In this document: positions 8,977 through 57,203 of the stretch, one piece after another | Layout: each line of letters starts with the position of its first letter | Position numbering within the stretch: the first letter of the stretch is position 1 | Virus record (IMG/VR): IMGVR_UViG_3300031088_000740 | Source of the DNA: an uncultured virus (IMG/VR IMGVR_UViG_3300031088_000740) | Lineage: Duplodnaviria > Heunggongvirae > Uroviricota > Caudoviricetes | Direction: 5' to 3' (one strand) | Length of the DNA: 64,000 bases | Program-made: the position numbers and the translations under genes | The notes under the pieces: model-generated | Told to the model about the DNA's origin: nothing | Database searches by the model: none | Seen by the model: only the letters and a program-made list of their open reading frames with translations

Positions 8977-9561
8977 TTACCACCACCACGACATGCTGTG
9001 CCTGTGCTGTGACACATCCATGTCGCTGTCATCTACATCGCCGTTGGCGTTGTACTCTTTTGCGTACCCGATGAGGGTGTCGCGGCTCTTTCTTCTGGAG
9101 CTACCGCTGAGGATTGCTCGGTCTTCCTGTGTGGAGAAGCCGTGGCGGTGCTTGCTTTCCTCAGGTGGCATCTCGGGTGTGCAGGGCAATGTACCGTTGC
9201 GGAATCGCTGTGACTCTTTGGTGTACTTCTGTCCTGCTGTGCACTCATCGGGGTAGACGAAATCGACCACTAACTCGAAGGCTGGGAACCAGCCCCAATC
9301 GTACTCGACTTCCACCCAGTACTCCTTGTAGAGTTCCCTGTGGATTCGAGCCTGTAGTTCTGTTACGCCGTTCTCGTACCCCTTTGACCAATCGAACCCG
9401 ATTCTCGTACCCTTGTTGTGGTAGTAGAGTGGTTCGCCTTCTTCGCTTACCAAGTACTGCCTTTTGTAGACGGTCTTGCCGCAGAGTAGGTGTTTGTGGT
9501 TCGTGAGTGTGCTGTCGTTCTCGCGCACCCAGTATGGTCTATCTTTTCTTGTTCTCGACAT
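8977..9561 (-). CDS. hypothetical protein (MSRTRKDRP..., C-terminal WWW) behind a leader/hairpin
   Basis: ORF; basic N-terminus; alternative start at 9573. Confidence 0.65.
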   Translation of the reverse strand: MSRTRKDRPYWVRENDSTLTNHKHLLCGKTVYKRQYLVSEEGEPLYYHNKGTRIGFDWSKGYENGVTELQARIHRELYKEYWVEVEYDWGWFPAFELVVDFVYPDECTAGQKYTKESQRFRNGTLPCTPEMPPEESKHRHGFSTQEDRAILSGSSRRKSRDTLIGYAKEYNANGDVDDSDMDVSQHRHSMSWWW

Positions 9562-9618
9562 TGCTCGGTCCATTCAGGACCGTAGATGTAGTCAAATCAC
9601 TACTCGGATCTACGGTCT

Positions 9619-9657
9619 CTAATGACCGTAGAAGGTGAGGATGCTGTTCATATTCAT
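9619..9657 (-). CDS. putative leader peptide MNMNSILTFYGH-amber
   Basis: AAGGGA RBS, ATGs at 9657 and 9651, TAG at 9621-9619 inside the hairpin 9566-9628. Confidence 0.55.
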   Translation of the reverse strand: MNMNSILTFYGH

Positions 9658-9683
9658 TCCCTTGGTTGTAAGTTGCTAGTGAA

Positions 9684-9713
9684 ACGATAGCATAGGAAAT
9701 TAGCACCAGTCAA
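9684..9713 (-). promoter_or_regulatory. SigA-type promoter TTGACT-N18-TATCGT (extended TGn)
   Basis: consensus match upstream of the leader peptide. Confidence 0.65.
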
Positions 9714-9726
9714 TACATCCACTTGG

Positions 9727-10014
9727 TTACTCAAACGGATTGACTCTCATGATGCGGCAGTCGCAGCCCCATCTAGTAGCCTTATCAAAAGCAGCTTGGT
9801 AGTCATTCATGACACAATTCGAATGCCAAACGTCCTCTCCTGACTCTTCATCGTATTCATCCCAACCCACGTCGTACAAAGTGCCCACTTCTGCGTCTCT
9901 GGTCTTCCAACCTTCTGATTGAGCCATGCTGAAATACTCCAAAGCGAGAATAGCTATCTCTTCTGGACCAGCACCTTCTATCTCTGCGATGAATTTGGCT
10001 GCAATGACACTCAT
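9727..10014 (-). CDS. hypothetical acidic protein
   Basis: 95 aa; TAATG stop/start coupling with the upstream Pth2-HD gene. Confidence 0.6.
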   Translation of the reverse strand: MSVIAAKFIAEIEGAGPEEIAILALEYFSMAQSEGWKTRDAEVGTLYDVGWDEYDEESGEDVWHSNCVMNDYQAAFDKATRWGCDCRIMRVNPFE

Positions 10015-11036
10015 TACTCGGCACCATTCTCGAACATGACCTTGCAGATAGCCTTGCCTCGCTGATCGAGCCTCTTGTACTTCATCTTGAATCCAGTTGA
10101 CTCAATACCACCGAACATTGCAGCATTGCTAGTCAACTCGGCAAGACCGCTGAGCAGTTGTGCAATGGCAAAGCCAGATTCAACGAACTGGGGTACATCT
10201 ACAGCGGAAAGCAGGTGGATATCCATATCGTGCTCAATGAGGTACGAGACGGATGCATCTGGAGAAGAGAAGGTGTCATTGTAAGTCCTCTGAGATGACT
10301 GTGCATGCATAGGGAAGTGCCTTTTACCCTCATCATCTACTTCGAGAACACTAGGCTTGCCGCAGTCATGTAGCGTGAGGTACCTATCCATGACATACCG
10401 GTCGGGAATGGCGCTGAGAAGCTCTATGCGGTAGTCAGCCAGCCAACTAGGCAAACGCCAGTTACTCGTCTGCGACAGGTCAACCTCGCCCCGTAGGTGA
10501 CTGATTAGAGCGAAGTAGTGTTCACGAACCGAACGACCATGCTGCAATACGTTCTGACCTTCTGTCTGCTCACAATCCATCATTGCGAAAGACATATCGC
10601 GGATCTTTCGCTCGCGCTGGCGAAGCTCAGACTCTCGACTTTCGCTGATGTTCCTACCTGCGCAACGAAGGTTAGAAAGAAGCTTCCTGGTGTTTTCCGA
10701 AGGTCCAAAAGCCAGTGCGGTAATCTCATCACCAAGATCAGGCTCTCTAAACTCTGTGACGAGCATTCCCTTACCGGCAGCAGACTCCTGCAACTCATAG
10801 AGATGTCTTGCGCTATCAGCCTCTAGGACGATAACCGAGTTGGAAGTAAGGTTCCATGTTTTCGCTTCGTCGGGGTTGTTCAAGATGAACTCCGCAACAA
10901 CGTGTGCGATTTGTGCGGTCTGGTATCCGCTGGATAGTTCTTTATGTGTAACGAGGTACAGCTTGTCTTTGTGTTCGAGTGATGCAGGCTCCACGATAGG
11001 AGCGGGGATGATGGTGTTGTTGGAAACCTAAGTCAT
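10014..11036 (-). CDS. Pth2-like peptidyl-tRNA hydrolase domain fused to an HD phosphohydrolase; in-frame TAG at codon 3
   Basis: KLYLVTHKELSSGYQTAQIAH...FREPDLGDEITALA (PTH2-like); HDCGKP...HFPMHA...HDMDIH (HD). AGAAAGAG RBS precedes ATG-ACT-TAG at 11036, 14 codons in frame upstream of the GTG at 10994. Confidence 0.8.
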
Positions 11037-11066
11037 GATGACTCTTTCTGTTTGATGTGAGAGACA

Positions 11067-11095
11067 ACAGTAGCATACGCAACAACATCAGTCAA
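11067..11095 (-). promoter_or_regulatory. SigA-type promoter TTGACT-N17-TACTGT
   Basis: consensus match with TGn extension, 30 nt upstream of ATG 11036. Confidence 0.7.
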
Positions 11096-11138
11096 GACAA
11101 AATCATTGCCGACACACCTCTCGTGATACCTTTACCAG

Positions 11139-11840
11139 ATGTATAGCATTAGGGGTCAATATGACATTGATCAGGTCAAAGTAGCTGTTGAAAATTCTCG
11201 TAGCTACAGCGCAGCATTAAGAGTTTTGGGGTATGAGCCTCATGGTAAAAGACATTACGAGTTCACAGCGCTTGTGAAGGAGCTTGGTATCAATACAGAT
11301 CACTTCTCTCGTTTTGGACCTCGCGCTGCTCCAAAAGCCACGGAAGAACTACTTGTTGAAAATAGCCCTCGTAGGGTTACTGCCCATAGATTGAGAAGGG
11401 CGCTTATTGAGATAGGAAGAGAGGTCAGATGTGCGCACTGTAAAGTTCGAGACACATACAACAATCGCCCAATCACCTTAGAAATAGACCACATCAATGA
11501 AAATCCGCTCGACAACAGAAGAGAGAATCTGAGGTTTCTCTGCCCCAATTGTCACTCGCAAATAACAGCATCCAATAACGACAGTAGACGGGCTAGATGT
11601 GCTTGTGGAGCTAACAAGAGTAGAGATTCAACCCAATGTCACAGATGTCACTATTTGGCTGTACGAAGCGGAATTATCAAAATCAGTTCGCATCGAGACA
11701 AGATCGAATGGCCGGAGCAAAGAGAGCTAGTGCAGATGATTGCAGAGAGCAACTACTCTGAGACTAGCCGCAACCTAGGTGTATCGGTCGCCGCCATCAA
11801 GAAGAGACTTGCCAAGATGAGTCAATTACATCCAGAATAA
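11139..11840 (+). CDS. HNH homing endonuclease
   Basis: CAHC...LEIDHINENPLDNRRENLRFLCPNCHSQ; extra Cys cluster and C-terminal HTH; lies next to the tRNA. Confidence 0.9.
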   Translation: MYSIRGQYDIDQVKVAVENSRSYSAALRVLGYEPHGKRHYEFTALVKELGINTDHFSRFGPRAAPKATEELLVENSPRRVTAHRLRRALIEIGREVRCAHCKVRDTYNNRPITLEIDHINENPLDNRRENLRFLCPNCHSQITASNNDSRRARCACGANKSRDSTQCHRCHYLAVRSGIIKISSHRDKIEWPEQRELVQMIAESNYSETSRNLGVSVAAIKKRLAKMSQLHPE

Positions 11841-11844
11841 TCGG

Positions 11845-11917
11845 TGCCTTTGACGGGATTTGAACCCGCGTACGCAAGATTTTAGAGATCTCCGCTCAGC
11901 CGCTGAGCTACAAAGGC
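11845..11917 (-). tRNA. tRNA with anticodon CUA (amber suppressor)
   Basis: acceptor GCCUUUG/CAAAGGC plus A73, D arm GCUC/GAGC, anticodon arm GAGAU-CUCUAAA-AUCUU, T arm GCGGG-UUCAAAU-CCCGU; anticodon at 11885-11883; CCA not fully encoded (CCG). Confidence 0.92.
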
Positions 11918-11936
11918 TTGTTGTTGTTTCGAGTAA

Positions 11937-11965
11937 AGCCTAGCACGTCATTTTCGGATATGCAA
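11937..11965 (-). promoter_or_regulatory. SigA-type promoter of the tRNA, TTGCAT-N17-TAGGCT
   Basis: consensus-like with TGn, about 20 nt upstream of the tRNA 5' end. Confidence 0.6.
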
Positions 11966-12019
11966 CTCGAAAACTAGATGTCGCACTAGCCACCTATACT
12001 GATTCAAAGGAGTTCAACT

Positions 12020-17433: not shown

Positions 17434-18123
17434 TCAGATTAGATGAGCAACCACAGTCAATGTGTTCGGCGCAACTTCGGTAAATCCGGCATCACGAACC
17501 TCTACACCCCAAGACTCCCTGCTCTCAAAAGACACAAGAGTAATGACGGGTCTATCTAGTTCCCATCGGAAAAGCTGTTCTGCGCTTGCTGACATGATTG
17601 CCAACTGCACAGCGTGACCAACTTGCGCCATTGACTTACCAGTGGTCATTTCGACTTCTGGATTGAGAGCAATGAGAATCTCTGCCCGGTCGTCCGATTC
17701 AATCGGTCTACTCGGTAGATCAAGACCCTGAACCTGTAGTTTCTTTACGGCAGGATTCTGATCGGTTACAAGGGTCGGTGGCATAACCCACACGACGGCA
17801 TCTCCGTAAGAACCGATGACACCAGGAACATCAGTCACTGCATCCCATGCAGAAGCTCTTGCTCTCTTAGCAAGCTTCCGAATGCGACCATCAAGCCACA
17901 GAGAGGTAGCCTCGTGCCAGTCTCCACCGTCACGAATCTCTTCGCTAAGGAAGTAGTCGCGAATGGCAGCAGCGGTTGCGAGCAAGGCATCTTCGTGAGA
18001 AAGGTCTAGACTCTTCTCCAGATCGAGAACGATAGGAAGCGCCCTGATCTCAGACTCGTCTCTATCCCATTCAGGGACGGAGGAAACAAGACCAGTGAGA
18101 TCGGAAAAAGACATAGCGCTCAT
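17434..18123 (-). CDS. Pth2-family peptidyl-tRNA hydrolase (actinobacterial type)
   Basis: LNPEVEMTTGKSMAQVGHA...VRDAGFTEVAPNTLTV; alternative start at 18114. Confidence 0.85.
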   Translation of the reverse strand: MSAMSFSDLTGLVSSVPEWDRDESEIRALPIVLDLEKSLDLSHEDALLATAAAIRDYFLSEEIRDGGDWHEATSLWLDGRIRKLAKRARASAWDAVTDVPGVIGSYGDAVVWVMPPTLVTDQNPAVKKLQVQGLDLPSRPIESDDRAEILIALNPEVEMTTGKSMAQVGHAVQLAIMSASAEQLFRWELDRPVITLVSFESRESWGVEVRDAGFTEVAPNTLTVVAHLI

Positions 18124-18710: not shown

Positions 18711-19451
18711 TTAGCTGACAGGTTCGGACAGTGAGACCTTATGCTTCCCTCCGGGAGCTTCGTATGAGGAATCAAGCATGAGTCGCCAAGAATGGACTGA
18801 ACGATCATATTCAGCATCACGCAGAATTCTGTCCATGCCGGGAAGGTGTGCAGCACCCCATACGAGGACGACATCGCGGTCAGTATCAAGGGCAGCAGAA
18901 ACAGCAAAGCGATTGCGCTGGTGCAGGATTCCCTCACTGGAAATGATACCCCTGGTGAAGGGAATTAGGTTGCCCAGAGGCGCGATGATGTGCATGTTCC
19001 GAAGACTCCATAGTGCCTTGCGAGGGCTAATGGTGATTTCTTCTGCTGACACCTGACCGAGAACTTTAAGTGTCTTCTGGCTCATCTTCTGTACAACATC
19101 GAGCTTGGTCACATCATGCTTCTCCCACCTGGGAGCGTTGGCAAATGCGTCAGTCTGATAAGTCAGTCCCGTAAGATTGGCAATCTTCTTTCCCAACATC
19201 ATGAGTGATGTGAGCGTGTTGAGGCTGGCACGCTCATAGTCTGTTCTACCTACTGCTTCCTGAACACCTTCAAGGTGAATTACGGCACCCTGGCTTTCCT
19301 TCTCTTTCAAGAAGTCGATGAGTTCCGACCAAGATGCGTCTGTCGCTGCATGCATGACACCAACTGTCGTGATGCGCTTGCCTGAGATACGGTGAGTATA
19401 CTCCTGCACACGAGCTTCTAGACCTCTGGCTGTCTTACGAATGGCTCTCAA
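18711..19451 (-). CDS. hypothetical protein (possible TraB/GumN-like)
   Basis: GVMH, LEG, RN and WGAAHLPG motifs. Confidence 0.5.
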   Translation of the reverse strand: MRAIRKTARGLEARVQEYTHRISGKRITTVGVMHAATDASWSELIDFLKEKESQGAVIHLEGVQEAVGRTDYERASLNTLTSLMMLGKKIANLTGLTYQTDAFANAPRWEKHDVTKLDVVQKMSQKTLKVLGQVSAEEITISPRKALWSLRNMHIIAPLGNLIPFTRGIISSEGILHQRNRFAVSAALDTDRDVVLVWGAAHLPGMDRILRDAEYDRSVHSWRLMLDSSYEAPGGKHKVSLSEPVS

Positions 19452-19490
19452 CGTCCCCTGCTTTCTGTGAAGGGTGCGATCCTATCCCAT

Positions 19491-21444: not shown

Positions 21445-22779
21445 TTAGGACTCAAACTCAACCAAGTACTTGATGTTGACCTGCTCGGTGTTCCACACGA
21501 TAGCCTCGTGGTTTCTCACGCCACCGTAACCCGGACGAACGTTGATGGAGTTGAACGGCTTGCCAAACTTGTTCTTCTCGGTACGGGCGTAGCGAGGGTA
21601 GTTCTTGTCGTAGTTGCGACCCGTGCGGTACTCAGAACCCATCGCGACATCAGCAAGGAACATGAAGCAGCTATTGTCACGCGAGCCAGACCAGTAGCCG
21701 TGCGAGTAACCAAGGCTCTTAGTGCTGTCGTTGGAGAGATAGATACCATCTCCGAACATGCGACCTGCAATGACGTACTGACCACCAGTGGTCGGCGGGA
21801 CGAATAGCCCCCGACGAAGAATGGAAAGGATGTTGAAGCTACGTGAGCCGTGCCAAAGCTGCTGGACGTTACCAATCTCCTTGGCAATCTCGTCAAATCG
21901 CTTCTGACCTTCCTCGTCGGACACAGTGAAGATACGCTTGACCTTCAGGTAGCCCCAAGAGTGGTGGGCGTTCTTGGCATCCTGGTACTTCTTGACGATG
22001 CCCTTGTACTCATCAGATTCAGGGTCAAGAACAGCGACCTTGTACTTGAAGAGACGCTCGTACTTGGTGGCGATATCGTCGTCAGCAGTCGTTGCCTTCT
22101 TCTCCGCATCCTTGTTCGCCTCCGCAAACTTGATGGAGTCGGCAAGCTGGTCCAGAAGCTCGCGCTGCTTCTGGTACGAGTCAGCACCATCGAAGAAGGT
22201 CTCGTACCAGCCACGCTTAGCGGGAACCTTCTGAGGTACCAACTTGAGGTAGTTCTGCAACGCAGGAAGGAAGTCCGCGTCCGAGACCTTCAAGCCTTCC
22301 AGCTTGTCGATGAGGCGGCGAGCATCGTTGATGGACGACAGGCTGATGAGTCCGAGAGGGGTGCTCATCCGACCGGAATCAGCATCCACCTTGATGAGTC
22401 CGCCAGAAGCCTCGATGATCTCGTGGCGGTTGATGCGAACCAAGCGTTCAATGAGAGACTCAAGCTCAGGGTTGCCGTGCTCACCCACAAGAACAGTCTT
22501 TGCAACCTCCGTGAGGTGCGACTGATCGCCAGTCTCCTTTGCCTTGGTGGTAGTCACCACTTCGGTGCGCTCGTAACCCTTGCGCATCTTGCCGCGAATG
22601 ATTCGCTCGAAGGCAACAGGACCGCCAGACTGGTTGCTGTATGCACCAGAACCACCCACGCGACCGTAGTGGATCTTGATGGCACCAGTGCTAAACAGGG
22701 TGGCATGATAGAACTTGTTGTGGTTGTCGATTCCATCAACAAGGATGAGCATTTCTTCGCGCTCGATTACATCAGCCAT
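21445..22779 (-). CDS. WGR-domain PARP-family ADP-ribosyltransferase
   Basis: NKFY...HYGRVG...KMRKGY (WGR); LWHGS, GRMFGDGIYLS, KSLGY, NHEAIVW (H-Y-E triad). Confidence 0.9.
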   Translation of the reverse strand: MADVIEREEMLILVDGIDNHNKFYHATLFSTGAIKIHYGRVGGSGAYSNQSGGPVAFERIIRGKMRKGYERTEVVTTTKAKETGDQSHLTEVAKTVLVGEHGNPELESLIERLVRINRHEIIEASGGLIKVDADSGRMSTPLGLISLSSINDARRLIDKLEGLKVSDADFLPALQNYLKLVPQKVPAKRGWYETFFDGADSYQKQRELLDQLADSIKFAEANKDAEKKATTADDDIATKYERLFKYKVAVLDPESDEYKGIVKKYQDAKNAHHSWGYLKVKRIFTVSDEEGQKRFDEIAKEIGNVQQLWHGSRSFNILSILRRGLFVPPTTGGQYVIAGRMFGDGIYLSNDSTKSLGYSHGYWSGSRDNSCFMFLADVAMGSEYRTGRNYDKNYPRYARTEKNKFGKPFNSINVRPGYGGVRNHEAIVWNTEQVNIKYLVEFES

Positions 22780-31879: not shown

Positions 31880-32518
31880 TTACCCGATGCCGTTCAGTGC
31901 GAAGTCATCACGGTGCCGCCAGTCCGCCGAAGTGGTGACGTGACCTGCCCGGACGAACTTGGCAACCTTGCTACGGAAGTCCTTCTCCGCAATCGTTCCA
32001 GCATCTCGCAGAACAAAGCCCTCGGAAACGGTAGTGTCCTTCTGCTTCTCCCATGCAGCCACAGCCTCATCGAAGTCATCGCCCCGGTACAGGGTGGGAA
32101 CAACCGGAAGACCAAGCTCAGCAGCAAACTCCTCAGTGAAGTCCCAATCAAGCAGTTCATCCTTGTCATCCCAGACACCAAAGACCATGTAGAAACCCGG
32201 TAGGGAGTCATAGCCGACGCTACGACGGGCGTAGAGGCTCTCACCGGACACTCGCCAGCCTTCGGGAATCTGAAAGCGCACAGAAGCCCACAGCGCCTTA
32301 GCGGGGGTATCCCACGAGTGGGTTCCCGAGTCAAGCGAACGAGCGAAGAAGTGGTTACGAGTCATGGTGACGTTTCCGCCGTCCATCTTCTCGGTCACCA
32401 AGAACTCACTCGCGCTACGGAGCGTGTCAAGACCTGACTTGGTGATGAACTTGTCATCGGACGTAGCACCCGGGGAAGTCGGCAGGTGTGCCGTACGGGG
32501 ATACTTTTTGTTCTCCAT
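31880..32518 (-). CDS. ATP-dependent RNA ligase (Rnl2-like adenylyltransferase domain)
   Basis: KYPRTAHL, TEKMDG (motif I), GES, EGFVLR, AKFVR. Confidence 0.85.
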   Translation of the reverse strand: MENKKYPRTAHLPTSPGATSDDKFITKSGLDTLRSASEFLVTEKMDGGNVTMTRNHFFARSLDSGTHSWDTPAKALWASVRFQIPEGWRVSGESLYARRSVGYDSLPGFYMVFGVWDDKDELLDWDFTEEFAAELGLPVVPTLYRGDDFDEAVAAWEKQKDTTVSEGFVLRDAGTIAEKDFRSKVAKFVRAGHVTTSADWRHRDDFALNGIG

Positions 32519-39803: not shown

Positions 39804-40706
39804 ATGCCACTAAACCCTAACACCCAACCAAAGCAGATCGTTGATGTCAATGGTCATCTCACGACCCGTCACGTTTCGACCAACAAGACAACCAAGGGTG
39901 TTGACCGAGTGGCAAGCATCGTTCCTGTCAAGCCTTCTCTCGATAGAAGCAAGTACTCATCCCCGCTAGACAGAACCATTCAAAACACTCCGCTCAAGGA
40001 GATGGGACCGGCTCTTCTTTCTGCCGCAATTCAGCACAAATTCCCATCAGAACGTGTGGGCGATGCTATTGCGATGGCATCCTACCTTCACCGTAAGCAG
40101 ACCAGAGGATCGCGCGGTAGTCAGCCCCGTGATGAGTACATTTCCCACCCACTACGAAACTCTTTGCGCGCCATTCGGTTCAACTGTGAATCCGAGAACA
40201 TCGCTATCGCCAACATCATGCACGACACGGTGGAAGACTGCACTGATGAGATGATTGCTATTGAGTACCCCGAGCTTGATATCAGTGACTGGACTCAGCA
40301 GGAAAAGCAAGACTTCGCCATTGACGAAATCATCCTCCCGGCGTTCGGTGAGAGGGTAGCAAAAACGGTCAAGGGCGTTACCAACGCTCCTAAGAAGCCT
40401 GGTATCAGCAAGTTGCAGAGCCAGCAGGAGTACCGCGAAAAGGTTCTCAAAGCAATTGAAGATGAGGACGTTTTCATCGTCAAGACTTTCGACTGGCTCG
40501 ATAACGCTGGCTCCCTACATCACCATGTTGGCGAGAAGCCGGGTATGGTCAAAAGCATGGCTGGTAAGTACCGACCGCTAGCGCAAGCATTCATCGAGAG
40601 ATTGAAGACTGTCGAACAGATTCCTGAGCACAGCAGGGCGCTCTTGGAGATGAAGATTCGTGAGGTCGAAGCTCGTCTTATCGAGTTCGAAGCTATGGAA
40701 CTCTAA
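39804..40706 (+). CDS. DKNG-tag protein with RelA/SpoT-type HD hydrolase (Mesh1/SAH-like)
   Basis: KQIVDVNGHLTTRH tag; HRKQTR...YISHPL...MHDTVED...FGERVA..VKGVT...VKTFDWLDN. Confidence 0.85.
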   Translation: MPLNPNTQPKQIVDVNGHLTTRHVSTNKTTKGVDRVASIVPVKPSLDRSKYSSPLDRTIQNTPLKEMGPALLSAAIQHKFPSERVGDAIAMASYLHRKQTRGSRGSQPRDEYISHPLRNSLRAIRFNCESENIAIANIMHDTVEDCTDEMIAIEYPELDISDWTQQEKQDFAIDEIILPAFGERVAKTVKGVTNAPKKPGISKLQSQQEYREKVLKAIEDEDVFIVKTFDWLDNAGSLHHHVGEKPGMVKSMAGKYRPLAQAFIERLKTVEQIPEHSRALLEMKIREVEARLIEFEAMEL

Positions 40707-40762
40707 TTGACTCGAATGCCCTCCTTCTGATAGTGTTTGTGTATCAACCAGAAGGAGGGCAT
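40707..40762 (+). promoter_or_regulatory. promoter TTGACT-N18-TAGTGT embedded in a 14-bp hairpin that sequesters the downstream RBS
   Basis: arms 40716-40729 and 40749-40762; right arm contains AAGGAGG. Confidence 0.7.
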
Positions 40763-40766
40763 CGTC

Positions 40767-41561
40767 ATGTCAACACAAGAAATCAGCTTGTCGGGCATCG
40801 ACGACCTTTCGTTGATCCTTCACACTGTCTACGGTTCTGAAGTTCACCACATCAACTACGGTGATGCATCAGACCGAGATGAAGTCGCTATCTACGTCCC
40901 TACGATTGACGAAGCACTGAGCCTTCAGTCTCCGATTGAACTGTATCGGTATCGCTCTGCCTATGACCGTAGAGGCGAAGAGGACTACCATACTCAACCT
41001 CGTAGTCAGAAAGGCGATCTGGACTTCAACGTTTACGAAGTGAGGCATTGGTCTCGCATTGCTCTAACGGGTAGCCCATTCATCCTCGCACCACTGTTTG
41101 TTGACGAAGAGTGGATTATCTCGGAGACAGATATGGGCGCGGAGCTTCGAGAGAACTGGGATCGGTTCATGTCTCGAAGCGTCATCACCAAGTCAATTGG
41201 TTACATGAAGTCACAGTACGAGCGGATGATGGGCATTCGAAGCAACAGGGTATCTCGACCTGAGCTTGTCGATGCTCATGGTTACGATACGAAGTTCGCG
41301 GCTCACATGATTCGCATTGGTATCCAAGCTCGCAAGGTGGTTGCTGGTAAGGGTATCGAAATTCCTGTCAATCCTGTCGATGCTGCAAAGATTCGATCTG
41401 TCCGAGCAGGTGAGGTAGAGCAAGATGAGGTGGTCGCTTGGTATCACGCACTCTACGCTGAGCTTTCTTCTGCACTAGATGAAGAAAGGTACTTTGTTCC
41501 CGAGGAACCGGATTACGCTTGGGTGAATGACTGGGCAGTAAGAGCCATCCGCAATCAGTGA
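40767..41561 (+). CDS. predicted nucleotidyltransferase (Nuc-transf/YcgL-like)
   Basis: GSEVH...SDRD; GYDTKFAAHMIR...IRSVRAG. Confidence 0.8.
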   Translation: MSTQEISLSGIDDLSLILHTVYGSEVHHINYGDASDRDEVAIYVPTIDEALSLQSPIELYRYRSAYDRRGEEDYHTQPRSQKGDLDFNVYEVRHWSRIALTGSPFILAPLFVDEEWIISETDMGAELRENWDRFMSRSVITKSIGYMKSQYERMMGIRSNRVSRPELVDAHGYDTKFAAHMIRIGIQARKVVAGKGIEIPVNPVDAAKIRSVRAGEVEQDEVVAWYHALYAELSSALDEERYFVPEEPDYAWVNDWAVRAIRNQ

Positions 41562-49588: not shown

Positions 49589-50116
49589 ATGAAGCGTTCA
49601 TCGGCAACTAACACAAGCCGCCATTTGGCGTACCTGCTTCGTCACGAGCCTTCTTTCGTCAACGAGTTTGGGTGGGCAACTATCTCGGCAGCAGAGAGCG
49701 CATTGAGCGCACACGCTGGTGGCACTGTCACTCGCGGCGACATTAAGAAGATCGTTGCCGAGGACTCCAAGGGGCGTTACGAGATTCAGGGCGAGCGTAT
49801 CCGCGCTGTTCAGGGTCATTCGCACCCTGTCAACCTTGGATGGGTTTCTACGACCCCGCCCGAGACTCTTCTTCACGGAACGGTCGAGAAGTTCGCTGGC
49901 GCTATCCTTCGCGAGGGTTTGAAGCCTCAGTCTAGGACGCACGTCCACATGTCGGAGACGGTTGAGACTGCCGTTCAGGTCGGTTCACGTCGGGGAGAGG
50001 CAGTGATTCTCACCATCAACGCTGCACAAGCTGCGGCAGAGGGCGTAGCCTTTTTCCAGTCCGCCAACGGTGTCTGGCTTGCTCAGCACGTCCCAGCTAA
50101 GTTCATCAGCCGCTAA
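49589..50116 (+). CDS. kptA: RNA 2'-phosphotransferase (Tpt1/KptA)
   Basis: LLRH, KGRY, IRAVQGHS, HGT, RTHVH, VGSRR, NGVWL. Confidence 0.92.
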   Translation: MKRSSATNTSRHLAYLLRHEPSFVNEFGWATISAAESALSAHAGGTVTRGDIKKIVAEDSKGRYEIQGERIRAVQGHSHPVNLGWVSTTPPETLLHGTVEKFAGAILREGLKPQSRTHVHMSETVETAVQVGSRRGEAVILTINAAQAAAEGVAFFQSANGVWLAQHVPAKFISR

Positions 50117-56217: not shown

Positions 56218-57203
56218 ACAGCACCCCTTATGACATTCCTACATGTTGGGGTGTATCTACCAGAAACTCTGAGCGGACCAGGAGTAGAAACGAGGCACAT
56301 ACCGAGTTCATCTACGCCAACATCGACGGCATCTCGAACACTCCGTTCATCTACCAGTTCTGCGGTCATGAAAATCGTAAGGACGAATGCGTAGTACCTA
56401 AGCACAAGCGGTCTGAGGCGGACTCCGAGTATGCATGTCGAGTCATCACAGCAATCATCGTCCCCTTTGCAGCGGGTTCATTCGATCTCGTCGTGGCTGA
56501 CAGGGCACGTGCTATTGGTAAGAAGATGGACGTACCGGTCTTCTATGTCTATCACCACCCATTCGACTACAACTACGATCACACGATTGAGTTCGAGGTG
56601 CTCAAACCTGACGGCAGCAGGACATACCATGCGCTTGCCAAATGGAAGCGCGGCTTGCTTACGGCGCTTCTTGATACGCAGATTGATCACGAAGAGCAGC
56701 ACAACTGCTTCATTGATGTTCCCGAAGGTGCTGTTGACTGGCTTGATGGAGAGAAAGATGCATCCATCACTGATGATTCCAAGGTGCATGAGAAGGATGG
56801 CGTTGATCTCACTCTATCTGGGATTCTGAGACTCATTCCCGGCGTGCGACACCTCGATATCGATGCCTGTGTAACCTGCGACCTCTGTAATGAACCTATC
56901 GCACTCATCGAAGCATCGAGCGATGGATACAGTCGTGGAAAGCTGGCAGGCAAGAAGAAGACTGCCGCCATGACACTGAAGGTCGGTGCGCAGCTTGATG
57001 TTCCGACAATGAAGTTGCTGCATGAACCCAGCAAGGATGTTGACTTTGACTCTGGCGCTGACGTAACGACATGGAAGCCTGGGAAGCTCTGGGATAACGA
57101 CGGGTACGTAGTTGTGGATGGGGAGAGACCTATCGATATGGAAGACGCTGTTGGATTCGTTGAGGACGTACTCAAGCAGCACCGTATCGATCACCATTCT
57201 TGA
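56211..57203 (+). CDS. hypothetical protein
   Basis: 330 aa ORF with Cys motifs. Confidence 0.6.
   Translation: MTNSTPYDIPTCWGVSTRNSERTRSRNEAHTEFIYANIDGISNTPFIYQFCGHENRKDECVVPKHKRSEADSEYACRVITAIIVPFAAGSFDLVVADRARAIGKKMDVPVFYVYHHPFDYNYDHTIEFEVLKPDGSRTYHALAKWKRGLLTALLDTQIDHEEQHNCFIDVPEGAVDWLDGEKDASITDDSKVHEKDGVDLTLSGILRLIPGVRHLDIDACVTCDLCNEPIALIEASSDGYSRGKLAGKKKTAAMTLKVGAQLDVPTMKLLHEPSKDVDFDSGADVTTWKPGKLWDNDGYVVVDGERPIDMEDAVGFVEDVLKQHRIDHHS

What the first reader, a model, noticed from the sequence alone, without database searches (positions are those of the whole stretch)
8977..11965. Amber-suppressor tRNA clustered with amber-gated translation genes: a candidate stop-codon-sensing module
Seen: a canonical tRNA with anticodon CUA and its own promoter. 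On the same strand downstream lie a Pth2-HD gene that starts RBS-ATG-ACT-TAG in frame, a coupled small ORF, and a gene whose leader ends in TAG inside a hairpin. Ordinary genes here still end at TAG, so this is not genome-wide recoding. Known: RF1 terminates at UAG, Pth recycles peptidyl-tRNA, and RF2 autoregulation uses an internal stop. Inference: the tRNA and the two TAG-gated genes form a circuit that reads the RF1-versus-suppressor balance and switches on tRNA recycling or rescue functions during infection or when host defences attack translation.
Basis: partly seen in the sequence, partly recalled or inferred. Interest (0 to 1): 0.92.

Follow-up and report, generated by a model that had tools for sequence, protein, structure and literature searches.

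The report
Suppressor tRNA gates phage Pth2 gene
A large phage carries its own amber-suppressor tRNA beside a tRNA-recycling enzyme gene that opens ATG-ACT-TAG, and the same early stop codon with a matching suppressor tRNA recurs in dozens of distant phages, which points to a translational switch we could not find described.

Summary
The window is part of a large phage. It holds one tRNA (anticodon CUA, 11843-11917, minus strand). On the same strand lies a Pth2-HD gene that opens SD-ATG-ACT-TAG (TAG at 11030-11028) and runs in frame to 10014.

In the window alone this pattern could be chance. Comparison with relatives shows it is not. I examined 88 distinct phage Pth2 N-termini. Of these, 66 open with ATG, a few codons, then an in-frame stop, with no ATG before the conserved core. 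In 48 of the 66, ARAGORN finds a suppressor tRNA in the held DNA. In all 48 its anticodon matches the gate codon: 42 TAG/CUA, 3 TGA/UCA, 3 TAA/UUA. Separately encoded HD genes carry the same gate. So do the cultured phages pT24, CBB and XacN1.

There is no sign of genome-wide recoding. The 198-aa gene has a leader ORF that ends in TAG, conserved in 5 of 5 relatives. In the window that leader is not a simple read-through.

Best reading: a suppressor-tRNA-dependent translational gate on tRNA-end-processing enzymes. Why the phage wants this coupling is inferred, not shown. Five literature searches found no description of it.

Main caveats:
- There is no expression or decoding data.
- Two complete gated genomes lack a canonical suppressor tRNA.

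The parts
11937..11965 (-). Promoter-like motif upstream of the tRNA: TTGCAT (11965-11960), 17 nt, TAGGCT (11942-11937)
   Evidence: Read from the sequence. The consensus scan did not list it. L042 has TTGCAT-N17-TATAGT at the same place before its tRNA. Function not shown.
11843..11917 (-). tRNA with anticodon CUA (amber suppressor type), 7-nt anticodon loop CUCUAAA, discriminator A, CCA not fully encoded
   Evidence: ARAGORN. Rfam RF00005 at 58.5 bits, model positions 1-71 of 71. It is 82.4% identical to the CUA tRNA of Pectobacterium phage CBB. Among 388 tRNAs of the loci, its nearest matches are other CUA tRNAs.
11139..11840 (+). HNH endonuclease gene inserted between the tRNA and the gated gene; present or absent in natural populations
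   Evidence: Pfam HNH/HNH_3 (below their curated cut-offs) and phrog_10822 at 8e-41. The syntenic relative L042 lacks it. Contigs of runs X2 and X6 join 11052 to 11879 with 67 other letters between.
11042..11049 (-). Purine-rich Shine-Dalgarno-like stretch AGAAAGAG, 5 nt before ATG 11036
   Evidence: Read from the sequence. Similar stretches (AGAAAGAA, GAAAGAAAG, AAAGGAAA) precede the ATG of L042, L045 and L044. No such stretch precedes GTG 10994.
11028..11036 (-). The gate: ATG ACT TAG, with the stop as codon 3, followed by GTT
   Evidence: The same opening is found in 11 of 11 relatives of the fused gene whose N-terminus lies on the contig: M-T-TAG in 10 (L042-L045, L047-L049, L051, L053, L058) and M-T-F-T-TAG in L046. 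No variant appears at these 9 bases in the three DNA runs that cover them.
10997..11027 (-). Codons between the TAG and the first canonical start (GTG 10994), encoding VSNNTIIPAPI
   Evidence: The peptide is conserved in relatives: VQNTVIPAPVVEPAS, VSNNIIPFIPAEPVS, VTSNTIPTIENEPES, and in called proteins P0003 and P0013. Run X3 has an in-frame 3-nt deletion at 11015.
10014..11036 (-). Pth2-HD gene. Pth2-like domain at about 10659-10982, HD-fold domain at about 10020-10634.
   Evidence: Pfam PTH2 and phrog_14850. AlphaFold model with pLDDT 95.3. Pth2 fold: TM 0.77 to 3erj, and Z 13.0 to 1wn2. HD fold: Z 13.5 to 3wfo and Z 8-8.7 to other HD proteins.
9727..10014 (-). 95-aa ORF whose ATG overlaps the Pth2-HD stop (TAATG); function unknown
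   Evidence: Homologues follow the Pth2-HD gene in L042, L045, L047 and L050. No Pfam, PHROG or Atlas lead.
9684..9713 (-). Promoter-like site TTGACT-N18-TATCGT before the leader of the 198-aa gene
   Evidence: Listed by the scan. The same two hexamers with the same spacing occur in L042.
9619..9657 (-). Leader ORF MNMNSILTFYGH ending in TAG (9621-9619)
   Evidence: A leader ORF ending in TAG lies in frame, 60 or 63 nt before the conserved ATG of MSRT.KDRPYW, in 5 of 5 relatives.
9574..9631 (-). Leader hairpins. CTACGGTC (9631-9624) and GACCGTAG (9617-9610) flank the TAG. A third copy, CTACGGTC (9585-9578), can pair with the second instead. Further in-frame stops: 9612-9610, 9594-9592, 9576-9574.
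   Evidence: Folds: z -2.66 and z -3.14. A hairpin starts 1-5 nt after the leader TAG in 4 of 5 relatives, with different sequences.
8977..9573 (-). 198-aa gene of unknown function (conserved start probably ATG 9561); travels with the tRNA/Pth2-HD module
   Evidence: Homologues lie beside the module in L042, L044, L045 and L051. Only 3 protein hits in the large database. No family.

Best explanation
The window is an accessory region of a large phage. It holds a suppressor-tRNA-dependent translational gate.

How it works:
- The Pth2-HD gene is translated from ATG 11036.
- Its third codon is UAG.
- If a release factor wins at that codon, only a dipeptide is made.
- If the phage's own tRNA-CUA (11843-11917) decodes it, the ribosome goes on and makes the full two-domain enzyme.
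- Output therefore follows the activity of the suppressor tRNA relative to termination.

Why the gate sits where it does (inferred): it lies in a non-conserved N-terminal tail. Any inserted amino acid is tolerated there, and failed suppression costs almost nothing. It is followed by a purine, which I recall favours amber suppression in E. coli.

Ancestral arrangement: the tRNA lies about 50-60 nt upstream on the same strand. One transcript probably gives both the tRNA and the mRNA. Here an HNH endonuclease gene has been inserted between them.

The enzyme: a divergent Pth2 domain fused to an HD-fold domain. The HD domain most resembles a region of a PDB entry titled 'tRNA processing enzyme'. 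The enzyme probably acts on the 3' ends of tRNAs.

Purpose (inferred): enzymes that recycle or clean tRNAs are made only when, and as far as, stop-codon suppression is active. Suppression sends ribosomes past normal stops and raises the load on rescue and recycling. A second gene of the module has a conserved TAG-ended leader ORF with hairpins and may respond to the same signal.

Shown: the anatomy, its conservation, and the match between gate codon and anticodon. Inferred: decoding in vivo, co-transcription, enzyme activity and physiological purpose.
For: 1. The tRNA is real: ARAGORN and Rfam at 58.5 bits.

2. The gene starts upstream of GTG 10994.
- The 11 codons between the TAG and the GTG encode a peptide conserved in relatives.
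- Only ATG 11036 has an SD-like stretch before it.
- A natural variant has an in-frame 3-nt deletion in this stretch.

3. Survey of 107 evaluable Pth2 N-termini, 88 of them distinct.
- 66 are gated: ATG plus up to 9 further codons, then a stop, with no ATG before the core. The stop is TAG in 59, TGA in 4 and TAA in 3.
- The stop is codon 3 in 38 of the 66.
- The base after the stop is A in 42, G in 21, C in 3 and T in 0.

4. The gate codon matches the anticodon.
- 48 of the 66 have an ARAGORN-called suppressor tRNA in the held DNA.
- All 48 match: 42 CUA, 3 UCA, 3 UUA.
- 47 of the 48 lie on the gene's strand.
- 20 lie within 200 nt upstream, and 7 lie just behind the short gene.
- On a quick tree, TAA gates sit in 3 places and TGA gates in 2 clades, each with its matching tRNA.

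5. Each half of the enzyme, when encoded alone, has its own gate. Of 12 distinct HD-only genes, 6 open with an early TAG and 1 has an internal TAG.

6. Cultured phages show it.
- pT24: ATG AAA TAG, with a CUA tRNA.
- CBB: Pth2 opens ATG GCA CAA TAG behind an AGAGGA SD, its HD gene has an internal TAG, and it has a CUA tRNA.
- XacN1: ORF364 opens ATG AAG TAG behind its SD. The XacN1 paper says the targets of its two CUA tRNAs could not be found (PMC5852040, passages).

7. There is no general recoding.
- In the window, ORF coverage is 0.912 with the standard code and 0.916 with TAG as sense. 18 of 83 ORFs end in TAG.
- Among 29 gated loci (window included) of at least 12 kb, the gate's stop gave the largest coverage gain in 7. 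About a third would be expected by chance.

8. Even among the 17 ungated Pth2 genes, 13 have a suppressor tRNA in the held DNA, mostly just behind the gene.

9. Context fits tRNA recycling or rescue.
- tmRNA genes lie in the held DNA of 8 loci (6 of 107 by ARAGORN, 2 more by Rfam), and in the Pth2/CUA tRNA array of phage IkeLoa.
- Read-through caused by suppressor tRNAs is cited as a source of non-stop complexes (PMC3985003, passage citing Ueda 2002).

10. The gate is kept in natural variants: no change at 11028-11036 in runs X2, X3 and X6.
Against: - There is no direct evidence that the tRNA is expressed, charged, or reads this UAG. The only RNA-library data are four short contigs, which may be DNA carry-over.
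- In the window alone the pattern is not rare by chance. GTG 10994 could serve as a start.
- 18 of the 66 gated genes have no ARAGORN suppressor in the held DNA. Ten of these are on stretches under 3.3 kb.
- Two complete genomes with a TAG gate (G003, 362 kb, 57 tRNAs; G004, 360 kb, 48 tRNAs) have no tRNA with a suppressor anticodon. The only candidates there are tRNA-like sequences with a CUA-bearing loop near the gate. I picked these out by eye, and neither ARAGORN nor Rfam calls them.
- L003, L008 and L031 show no candidate within 1.5 kb of the gate.
- In mycobacteriophages IkeLoa and Phabba the TAG stands directly between an NTG and the annotated GTG start, and the SD spacing favours that GTG. 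Those cases are ambiguous.
- The Pth2 domain lacks the lysine of the archaeal 'GK' motif; it has Tyr there. The enzyme may therefore not be a classical peptidyl-tRNA hydrolase.
- The loci were found through conserved peptide motifs and are not a random sample. Many are related to each other.
Confidence: 0.8

Rival explanations
1. The 2-5 codon ORF is an ordinary upstream mini-ORF. Ribosomes terminate at its stop and start again at the next codon (often ATT, a known rare start), or start there directly. The suppressor tRNA nearby is only one member of a tRNA cluster in which Pth2 genes happen to sit.
For: The codon after the stop is ATT in 31 of 66 gates, ATA in 3, ATC in 1 and GTG in 1. Two complete gated genomes lack a canonical suppressor tRNA. 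Pth2 genes often lie within tRNA arrays.
Against: In 29 of 66 gates the next codon is not start-like under the strictest count: GTA 10, GTT 7 (the window's own), AAC, ACA, AGT, CAC and others. This rival does not explain why the stop type matches the neighbouring anticodon in 48 of 48 cases, including the rare TGA/UCA and TAA/UUA pairs in separate lineages. It also does not explain the internal TAGs in the CBB HD gene and in the L038 Pth2 gene.
Confidence: 0.08
2. These phages read TAG (or TGA, TAA) as a sense codon throughout, or in a large block of genes, as in known recoded phages. The TAG in Pth2 is then just one of many.
For: Phage suppressor tRNAs are best known from recoded phages (preprint 10.1101/2021.08.26.457843 and PMC13037316; search listings, abstracts and some passages). 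In a few loci, such as L069 and L047, ORF coverage rises when TAG is read as sense.
Against: In the window, 18 of 83 ORFs end at TAG, and reading TAG as sense merges only one ORF pair (83 to 82) with coverage 0.912 to 0.916. Among 29 loci (window included), the gate's stop gives the largest gain in only 7. General recoding would not place the stop at codons 2-5 in 60 of 66 genes.
Confidence: 0.03
3. In this window the TAG is a chance feature or a decayed start. The protein starts at GTG 10994, and the tRNA serves other purposes.
For: The pattern occurs 12 times by chance for TAG in the window. GTG is a legal start. The Pth2 core begins after it.
Against: All 11 relatives of the fused gene (48-68% identity) whose N-terminus lies on the contig keep an ATG, 1-3 codons, then TAG; L050 is cut at the contig end. 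7 of the 11 have no ATG, GTG or TTG at all between the TAG and the core. The peptide upstream of the GTG is conserved. There is no SD before the GTG. The gate is unchanged in three natural variants.
Confidence: 0.03
4. The gate is read by the tRNA, but its purpose is only to keep a potentially harmful enzyme at a low level, or to delay it until phage tRNAs have accumulated. It does not sense any changing state.
For: An early stop is a cheap attenuator. The tRNA lies directly upstream on the same strand in 20 of 48 cases, so the gene cannot be translated well before its own tRNA is made. I recall, but did not check, that archaeal Pth2 enzymes have a looser substrate range than bacterial Pth.
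Against: Nothing here excludes this. It is a variant of the best explanation and shares its mechanism. The extra TAG-ended leader with alternative hairpins on a second gene suggests more than a fixed attenuator.
Confidence: 0.3

Closest known systems
Stop-codon recoding in phages with suppressor tRNAs (code 15 / code 4 phages such as crAss-like and Lak phages)
   Same: A phage-encoded suppressor tRNA decodes in-frame stops in phage genes in a host that uses the standard code. This has been proposed to regulate when genes are translated (preprint 10.1101/2021.08.26.457843; search listing and start of abstract only).
   Different: There, dozens to hundreds of late genes carry in-frame stops at many positions. 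Here the rest of the window uses the standard code. The stop sits at codons 2-5 of one enzyme family, and the tRNA is usually its direct neighbour. That preprint holds no occurrence of 'peptidyl-tRNA hydrolase' or 'Pth2'.
prfB (RF2) autoregulation by an early in-frame stop
   Same: An in-frame stop close to the start makes synthesis depend on competition at the ribosomal A site (PMC12421855; search listing and abstract).
   Different: prfB needs a +1 frameshift, and its product is the factor that reads the stop. Here the frame is unchanged, the competitor is a dedicated tRNA, and the product is not a release factor.
Selenocysteine and pyrrolysine insertion
   Same: A special tRNA with a stop-codon anticodon reads a specific in-frame stop, sometimes helped by a hairpin behind it.
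   Different: Nothing here points to a special amino acid. The window tRNA fits the general tRNA model in full. The gate lies in a variable N-terminal tail, and all three stop codons are used across phages. The hairpin after the TAG occurs only in the leader of the 198-aa gene.
Lambda bar-type minigenes and Pth
   Same: An SD-driven ORF of 2-4 codons. Such minigenes cause peptidyl-tRNA to accumulate and make cells depend on Pth (PMC2490762, abstract; the lambda bar details are recalled).
   Different: Here the mini-ORF is the closed state of a gene that itself encodes a Pth-like enzyme, and it continues in frame into that gene.
Engineered amber-suppression gene switches
   Same: A UAG near the start of a gene plus an orthogonal suppressor tRNA works as a translational switch (PMC6412442; search listing and abstract).
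   Different: Those are man-made. This appears to be a natural counterpart with three codon/anticodon versions.
Jumbo-phage Pth2 as described by Iyer et al. 2021
   Same: The same protein family, proposed to hydrolyse peptidyl-tRNA during rescue after tRNA cleavage (PMC7824862, passages).
   Different: That paper's main text holds no occurrence of 'suppressor', and the passages shown on PTH2 mention no early stop.

Membership tests
Pth2 (PF01981) | Profile match above Pfam's gathering score | tested here: met
   26.0 bits against a cut-off of 23, residues 13-101. A profile of A1 finds archaeal Pth2 and Bit1 chains at E 3e-7 to 1e-5.
Pth2 (PF01981) | Pth2 alpha/beta fold | tested here: met
   Model pLDDT 95.3. 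Foldseek: 3erj_A TM 0.77, rmsd 2.4 over 112 columns. VIA: 1wn2_A Z 13.0, rmsd 2.3, 106 residues aligned.
Pth2 (PF01981) | Catalytic residues (Lys, Asp and Thr of the Sulfolobus enzyme; roles recalled, not from a call) | tested here: inconclusive
   D86 and T92 are invariant in 27 sequences. The Lys of the archaeal 'GK' aligns with Tyr24.
Pth2 (PF01981) | Hydrolysis of peptidyl-tRNA | not testable with these tools
   Needs an enzyme assay.
HD phosphohydrolase superfamily | His...His-Asp...Asp metal-binding motif | tested here: met
   H152, H209-D210, H230, D256 and H260 are invariant or nearly so in A1.
HD phosphohydrolase superfamily | HD fold or family profile | tested here: inconclusive
   No Pfam HD model matches. 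VIA gives 3wfo_A ('tRNA processing enzyme') Z 13.5, rmsd 3.3, 180 aligned, then GppA, PPX, PhnZ, PgpH and GlyRS-beta HD domains at Z 8-8.7. The tool warns that helical domains reach such Z values easily.
Nonsense-suppressor tRNA | Canonical tRNA with an anticodon complementary to a stop codon | tested here: met
Nonsense-suppressor tRNA | An in-frame stop of the matching type in a conserved gene | tested here: met
   Window gate. 48 of 48 matches across phages.
Nonsense-suppressor tRNA | Aminoacylation and decoding of the stop in vivo | not testable with these tools
   The amino acid is unknown. The nearest sense tRNAs are Arg(UCU) and Lys(CUU), weakly.
Genome-wide stop-codon reassignment (code 15-like) | Coding density and ORF length rise when the stop is read as sense; few genes end at that stop | tested here: not met
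   Coverage 0.912 against 0.916, and 18 of 83 ORFs end in TAG. The gate's stop gives the largest gain in 7 of 29 loci (window included). Only 64 kb of the phage is held.
Pyrrolysine system (ARAGORN's label) | pylS/pylBCD genes and the atypical tRNA-Pyl architecture | tested here: not met
   None among the 68 window proteins scanned with Pfam. The tRNA fits the general model over positions 1-71. The rest of the genome was not seen.
prfB-type programmed frameshift | Early in-frame stop bypassed by a +1 frameshift | tested here: not met
   The conserved frame continues straight through the TAG.

The most novel reading that the evidence does not exclude
The tRNA and its cognate stop codon form a self-contained, portable translational sensor. 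It may have no task other than to measure the contest between decoding and termination at codon 3, for example when release factor is depleted or tRNAs are damaged by host defence. It converts that measurement into synthesis of enzymes that clean or repair tRNA 3' ends. It exists in three orthogonal versions (UAG/CUA, UGA/UCA, UAA/UUA) and moves between unrelated phages as a cassette, sometimes with a homing endonuclease. It may also explain the 'orphan' suppressor tRNAs of jumbo phages that use the standard code. The second gene's TAG-ended leader with alternative hairpins would be a further output of the same sensor.
Probability: 0.3. Interest if true: 0.95.

Novelty: new variant of a known kind. 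Interest (0 to 1): 0.88.

Why it matters
Suppressor tRNAs in phages that otherwise use the standard code have had no known target. The XacN1 authors say so explicitly. This work gives them a conserved target and a testable logic: one enzyme family is gated by one stop codon that changes together with the tRNA's anticodon.

It would be a natural counterpart of the amber-suppression switches used in synthetic biology.

It also exposes a systematic annotation error. Gene callers cut or miss the N-termini of these genes, for example in CBB and the Rak2-like phages.

It links phage Pth2, HD enzymes and tmRNA to the consequences of stop-codon suppression.

Cultured phages with the gate exist (pT24, CBB, XacN1), so it can be tested directly.

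Tried and rejected
- Whole genome of the window: none is held.
- Earlier notes of this scan on this place or on this protein: none.
- A viral-contig scan with the single protein found nothing. The alignment-based scans did find loci.
- A search for a look-alike of the window tRNA in LR745206 found nothing.
- The pattern TCTAAA...GGTTCRA in five gated phage records hit only tRNA-Arg(UCU) genes and non-tRNA places.
- Genome-wide recoding: rejected.
- Other gates in the window:
  - ATG-GGA-TAG at 19484, before gene 18711-19451, has an SD-like GGGG before the later TTG start. Judged chance and not followed up.
  - ATG-TCG-CAC-TAG at 11987 lies before the AAGGAG SD of the DUF6900 gene. Judged chance.
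  - ATG-TAG at 56241 lies before a TTG start with its own SD. Judged chance.
- The second Pth2-like gene (17434-18123) is preceded by TAA, not TAG, and has its own ATG.
- Simple read-through of the leader TAG into the 198-aa gene: rejected for the window and L042, where further stops follow. It remains possible in L044, L045 and L051.
- Function of the 198-aa and 95-aa proteins: Pfam, PHROGs, the homologue search and the Atlas gave nothing usable.
- RNA evidence: one metatranscriptome run holds four short contigs on the stretch, two of them in the Pth2-HD gene. The tool warns that this does not show transcription.
- The consensus promoter scan does not list the tRNA's putative promoter.
- The amino acid carried by the tRNA could not be settled. 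Positions aligned with gate or internal TAGs are variable.
- The careful tree did not finish in time; the quick tree was used.
- No complex prediction was run.
- Supplements of the papers were not opened.
- Not examined for gates: L023, L050, L056, L059, L123.

Full report
**What is in the window**

ARAGORN finds one tRNA in the 64 kb, at 11843-11917 on the minus strand, with anticodon CTA. Rfam's general tRNA model matches it end to end at 58.5 bits and nothing else in the window reaches a gathering score. ARAGORN's label 'tRNA-Pyl' only restates the anticodon.

Downstream on the same strand the sequence reads AGAAAGAG-TCATC-ATG(11036)-ACT-TAG(11030-11028)-GTT. This is in frame with the 326-codon ORF that a mechanical ORF list starts at GTG 10994 and ends at 10014.

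That ORF has two domains.
- The N-terminal domain matches Pfam PTH2 at 26.0 bits against a cut-off of 23. It also matches phage family phrog_14850 at E 3.4e-58.
- An AlphaFold model built on 27 sequences has pLDDT 95.3. Its N-terminal domain has the Pth2 fold: 3erj TM 0.77 and 1wn2 Z 13.0, rmsd 2.3, 106 residues aligned.
- The C-terminal domain has an HD-type fold. Its best match is a PDB entry titled 'tRNA processing enzyme' (3wfo: Z 13.5, rmsd 3.3, 180 aligned). Other HD proteins follow at Z 8-8.7.
- His/Asp residues typical of HD enzymes are invariant or nearly so.
- The lysine of the archaeal 'GK' motif is replaced by tyrosine. The enzymatic activity is therefore open.

Three more features belong to the neighbourhood.
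- A 95-codon ORF (9727-10014) starts on the stop of the Pth2-HD gene.
- A 198-codon gene (8977-9573) follows, behind a leader.
- An HNH endonuclease gene (11139-11840) lies on the other strand, between the tRNA and the Pth2-HD gene.

**What kind of DNA this is**

No genome is held for the window. The gene content fits an accessory region of a large phage. It includes RNA ligase, Tpt1, an RlaP-type nucleotidyltransferase, an HD_4 protein, a PARP-like protein, NadR and PnuC, Hsp20, a second Pth2-like gene and many proteins without a family. Several have PHROG matches.

Near-identical DNA occurs in plant, phyllosphere, leaf-litter and straw metagenomes. Twenty runs hold the stretch or part of it, and the listed runs come from 17 studies in all.

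**Is the window recoded?**

No.
- With the standard code, greedily chosen ORFs cover 0.912 of the window. There are 83 ORFs, of which 18 end in TAG.
- Reading TAG as sense gives 0.916 and 82 ORFs. That is less gain than removing TAA or TGA gives.

**Is the early TAG chance?**

Within the window it could be. The pattern 'ATG within 9 codons, then a stop, then at least 80 open codons' occurs 12 times for TAG, 7 for TAA and 7 for TGA. Three things in and around the window argue against chance.
- The 11 codons between the TAG and GTG 10994 encode VSNNTIIPAPI. This peptide is conserved in relatives (VQNTVIPAPVVEPAS, VSNNIIPFIPAEPVS, VTSNTIPTIENEPES) and in called proteins such as P0003, MTTPNTSVIPFIAAEPAS.
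- Only ATG 11036 has a purine-rich SD-like stretch before it.
- In three DNA runs that cover the place, the nine bases ATG ACT TAG are unchanged. One run has an in-frame 3-nt deletion at 11015, inside the stretch that would be untranslated if GTG were the start.

**The comparison with relatives**

Tblastn against phage records gave the first cases.
- Tenacibaculum phage pT24 opens its Pth2-HD gene ATG AAA TAG ATA and has a CUA tRNA 2.5 kb upstream.
- A 635-kb uncultured phage opens its gene ATG AAC AAT TAG.
- Pectobacterium phage CBB has an internal TAG in its HD gene and a CUA tRNA that is 82% identical to the window's.

I then collected loci with an alignment of 27 homologues: 38 from viral contigs, 80 from metagenomes and 2 from genomes. 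For each locus with a Pth2 N-terminus, a script walked upstream in frame from the conserved KLY-VTR strand to the first stop.
- Of 108 entries, one ran off its contig. That left 107 evaluable, 88 of them distinct.
- I dropped 16 loci before the count because their match was to the HD domain, was partial or was weak: L001, L007, L023, L036, L050, L054-L056, L059-L062, L064-L066 and L123.

Result of the survey:

| Class (of 88 distinct) | Count |
|---|---|
| Gated: an ATG 1-10 codons before the stop and no ATG between stop and core | 66 |
| Such a stop, but a later ATG is also present | 3 |
| Plain start | 17 |
| Unclear | 2 |

One of the 17 'plain' genes, L049, in fact opens M-T-TAG-V 73 codons upstream of the core.

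Properties of the 66 gates:
- The stop is TAG in 59, TGA in 4 and TAA in 3.
- The stop is codon 3 in 38, codon 4 in 8, codon 5 in 12 and codon 2 in 2.
- The next base is A in 42, G in 21, C in 3 and never T.
- The next codon is ATT in 31, GTA in 10 and GTT in 7.

All 11 relatives of the window's fused gene whose N-terminus lies on the contig (48-68% identity) have an ATG, 1-3 codons, then TAG (L050 is cut at the contig end). Ten open M-T-TAG and one (L046) opens M-T-F-T-TAG.

**Gate codon and anticodon go together**
- In 48 of the 66 gated genes, ARAGORN finds a suppressor tRNA in the held DNA.
- In all 48 the anticodon matches the gate: 42 CUA with TAG, 3 UCA with TGA, 3 UUA with TAA. There is no mismatch.
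- 47 of the 48 are on the gene's strand. Twenty lie within 200 nt upstream, typically 45-65 nt. Seven lie just behind the short Pth2 gene.
- On a quick, poorly resolved tree of 92 Pth2 domains, TAA gates appear in three places (at least two forced by well-supported branches). TGA gates appear in two clades. Each has its matching tRNA.
- The suppressor tRNAs are diverse: 84 in all, 70 distinct. This fits a gate placed where any amino acid is tolerated.

**Both halves of the enzyme are gated**

Where the HD domain is a separate gene, it has its own gate. I looked at 12 distinct HD-only genes.
- Six open with an early TAG: L036 MT*, L054 MKDT*, L055 MTH*, L007 MSDYL*, L068 MT* and XacN1 ORF364 MK*.
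- CBB's has an internal TAG.
- Four have no gate.
- One is unclear.

**Cultured phages**
- CBB's Pth2 gene opens ATG GCA CAA TAG AAT behind an AGAGGA SD. Its annotated CDS starts further in.
- In three Rak2-like phages listed (fHe-Yen9-04, pEa_SNUABM_50, pEa_SNUABM_12), no feature is annotated under the Pth2 match at all.
- In XacN1 the SD stands before ATG AAG TAG, not before the annotated ATG four codons later. The XacN1 paper states that in-silico read-through of annotated amber stops found no target for its two CUA tRNAs (PMC5852040, passages).
- Mycobacteriophages of the Bxz1 type have Pth2 next to a CUA tRNA and a tmRNA. There the TAG stands directly between an NTG and the annotated GTG start, and the SD spacing favours that GTG. 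I count them as ambiguous.

**Controls and evidence against**
- Local recoding does not explain the gates. Among 29 distinct gated loci (window included) of at least 12 kb, turning the gate's stop into a sense codon gave the largest gain in ORF coverage in 7. About a third would be expected by chance.
- Eighteen gated genes have no ARAGORN suppressor in the held DNA. Ten of these are on stretches under 3.3 kb.
- I read two complete phage genomes with TAG gates in full. ARAGORN lists 57 and 48 tRNAs, none with a suppressor anticodon.
- Near the gates of these two genomes, and of L006, L044 and L045, lie tRNA-like sequences with CUCUAAA or UUCUAAC loops and odd D-arms or anticodon stems. ARAGORN and Rfam do not call them as CUA tRNAs. 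These are by-eye candidates only.
- L003, L008 and L031 show no candidate within 1.5 kb of the gate.
- There is no evidence of expression. One metatranscriptome run holds short contigs inside the gene, which the tool warns may be DNA.

**The original arrangement and the HNH insertion**

L042 is 68% identical in the protein and syntenic from the BaxI gene to the Fe-S gene. It has the tRNA 60 nt before ATG ACG TAG and no HNH gene.

Contigs of two runs join window position 11052 to 11879 with 67 other letters between. HNH-less alleles of this same phage therefore exist. The tRNA and the gated gene were probably one transcription unit. The TTGCAT-N17-TAnnnT motif before the tRNA is shared by the window and L042.

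**The second gene**

The 198-aa gene has a promoter-like site, TTGACT-N18-TATCGT. The scan lists it, and L042 has it identically.

Its leader holds a short ORF ending in TAG.
- A TAG-ended leader ORF is found in 5 of 5 relatives. The peptides differ: MNMNSILTFYGH, MRSITLYDHL, MINASTRFL, MVNTGFGFK and MTMRKTFR.
- The TAG is always in frame with the main ORF, and always 60 or 63 nt before the conserved ATG of MSRT.KDRPYW.
- In L044, L045 and L051 the frame stays open into the main ORF.
- In the window (TAG 9612-9610, TGA 9594-9592, TGA 9576-9574) and in L042 (TAA) it does not.
- A hairpin begins 1-5 nt after the TAG in 4 of 5, with different sequences.
- In the window, three copies of an 8-mer allow alternative pairings.

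This is a conserved element centred on a TAG. Whether the suppressor extends the protein or shifts ribosomes on the leader is open.

**How it most likely works**

Shown:
- the anatomy;
- its conservation across very distant phages, with GC content from 0.28 to 0.63;
- the match of gate codon and anticodon;
- the absence of general recoding.

Inferred: the tRNA decodes the gate in competition with a release factor, so that the amount of Pth2-HD follows suppressor activity.

Three points bear on the purpose.
- Thirteen of the 17 ungated Pth2 genes still have a suppressor tRNA in the held DNA, mostly right behind them.
- tmRNA genes lie in the held DNA of 8 loci: 6 of 107 by ARAGORN and 2 more by Rfam.
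- Read-through caused by suppressor tRNAs is a cited source of non-stop ribosomes (PMC3985003, passage).

Together these suggest that the enzyme deals with by-products of suppression, or with the tRNA pool itself.

**What is known**

Seven full-text searches were run, five of them aimed at this question. I read passages of five papers.
- Jumbo-phage Pth2 has been noted, without any link to suppressors (PMC7824862).
- Suppressor tRNAs are tied to genome-wide recoding (the preprint on stop-codon recoding in phages; PMC13037316).
- Suppressor tRNAs without known targets are reported for XacN1 and Atu_ph07.
- I found no description of the gate.

Subscription journals and supplements were not searched.

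**Verdict**

The finding is a widespread variant of programmed stop-codon suppression, not found in the literature searched. Its physiological purpose remains to be tested.

Noticed in passing
window 11053-11878: The HNH endonuclease gene is an insertion that is present or absent in natural populations. Contigs of runs X2 (minor form) and X6 replace these 826 bases by 67 other letters. The junction lies inside the tRNA's 3' half.
   Followed up: partly
window 17434-18123 (-): A second, 229-aa protein with a partial PTH2 match (aa 150-188). It is preceded by TAA and has its own ATG, so it is not gated. A 30%-identical relative lies in L069, 3.9 kb from that locus's gated Pth2.
   Followed up: partly
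window 31880-32518, 39804-41561, 49589-50116, 21445-22779: A set of RNA-repair-type genes (RNA ligase, HD_4 protein, RlaP-type nucleotidyltransferase, Tpt1 2'-phosphotransferase) and a PARP-like protein lie in the same phage region.
   Followed up: no
L008 8551-8905; L010 4047-4429; L027 5208-5584; L013, L019/L020, L026, L041; L124 11262-11696: tmRNA genes lie within a few kb of Pth2 genes in several phages. In mycobacteriophage IkeLoa the tmRNA is in the same tRNA array as Pth2 and the CUA tRNA.
   Followed up: partly
L010 9885-9958; L027 about 9520-9600; L006 about 9850-9935; L044 1686-1763 and 2503-2572; L045 4926-5001 and 5833-5906: tRNA-like sequences with a CUA-bearing but enlarged or poorly paired anticodon arm, or with odd D-arms. 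They stand where relatives have their CUA tRNA. ARAGORN reads them as something else, or not at all.
   Followed up: partly
L001 5630-5968 (CBB); fHe-Yen9-04 289142-289390 and relatives: In Rak2-like jumbo phages the Pth2 gene is annotated only in part or not at all, and the HD gene is split into two CDS. In CBB the cause is seen to be the in-frame TAGs; the other records were not read.
   Followed up: partly
L125 3004-3843 (XacN1 ORF364): Here the two domains are fused in the opposite order: HD first, Pth2 second.
   Followed up: no
L038 10172 and 10799-10892: An ungated Pth2 gene with an internal TAG. A 94-nt CUA tRNA, possibly with an intron, lies on the opposite strand.
   Followed up: no
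window 19476-19484 (-): ATG GGA TAG stands in frame 11 codons before the TTG start of gene 18711-19451. An SD-like GGGG precedes the TTG, so this is probably chance.
   Followed up: partly
L016/L084/L085, L039, L086, L094, L096, L109: Some loci carry two different suppressor tRNAs of the same anticodon next to the Pth2 gene.
   Followed up: no
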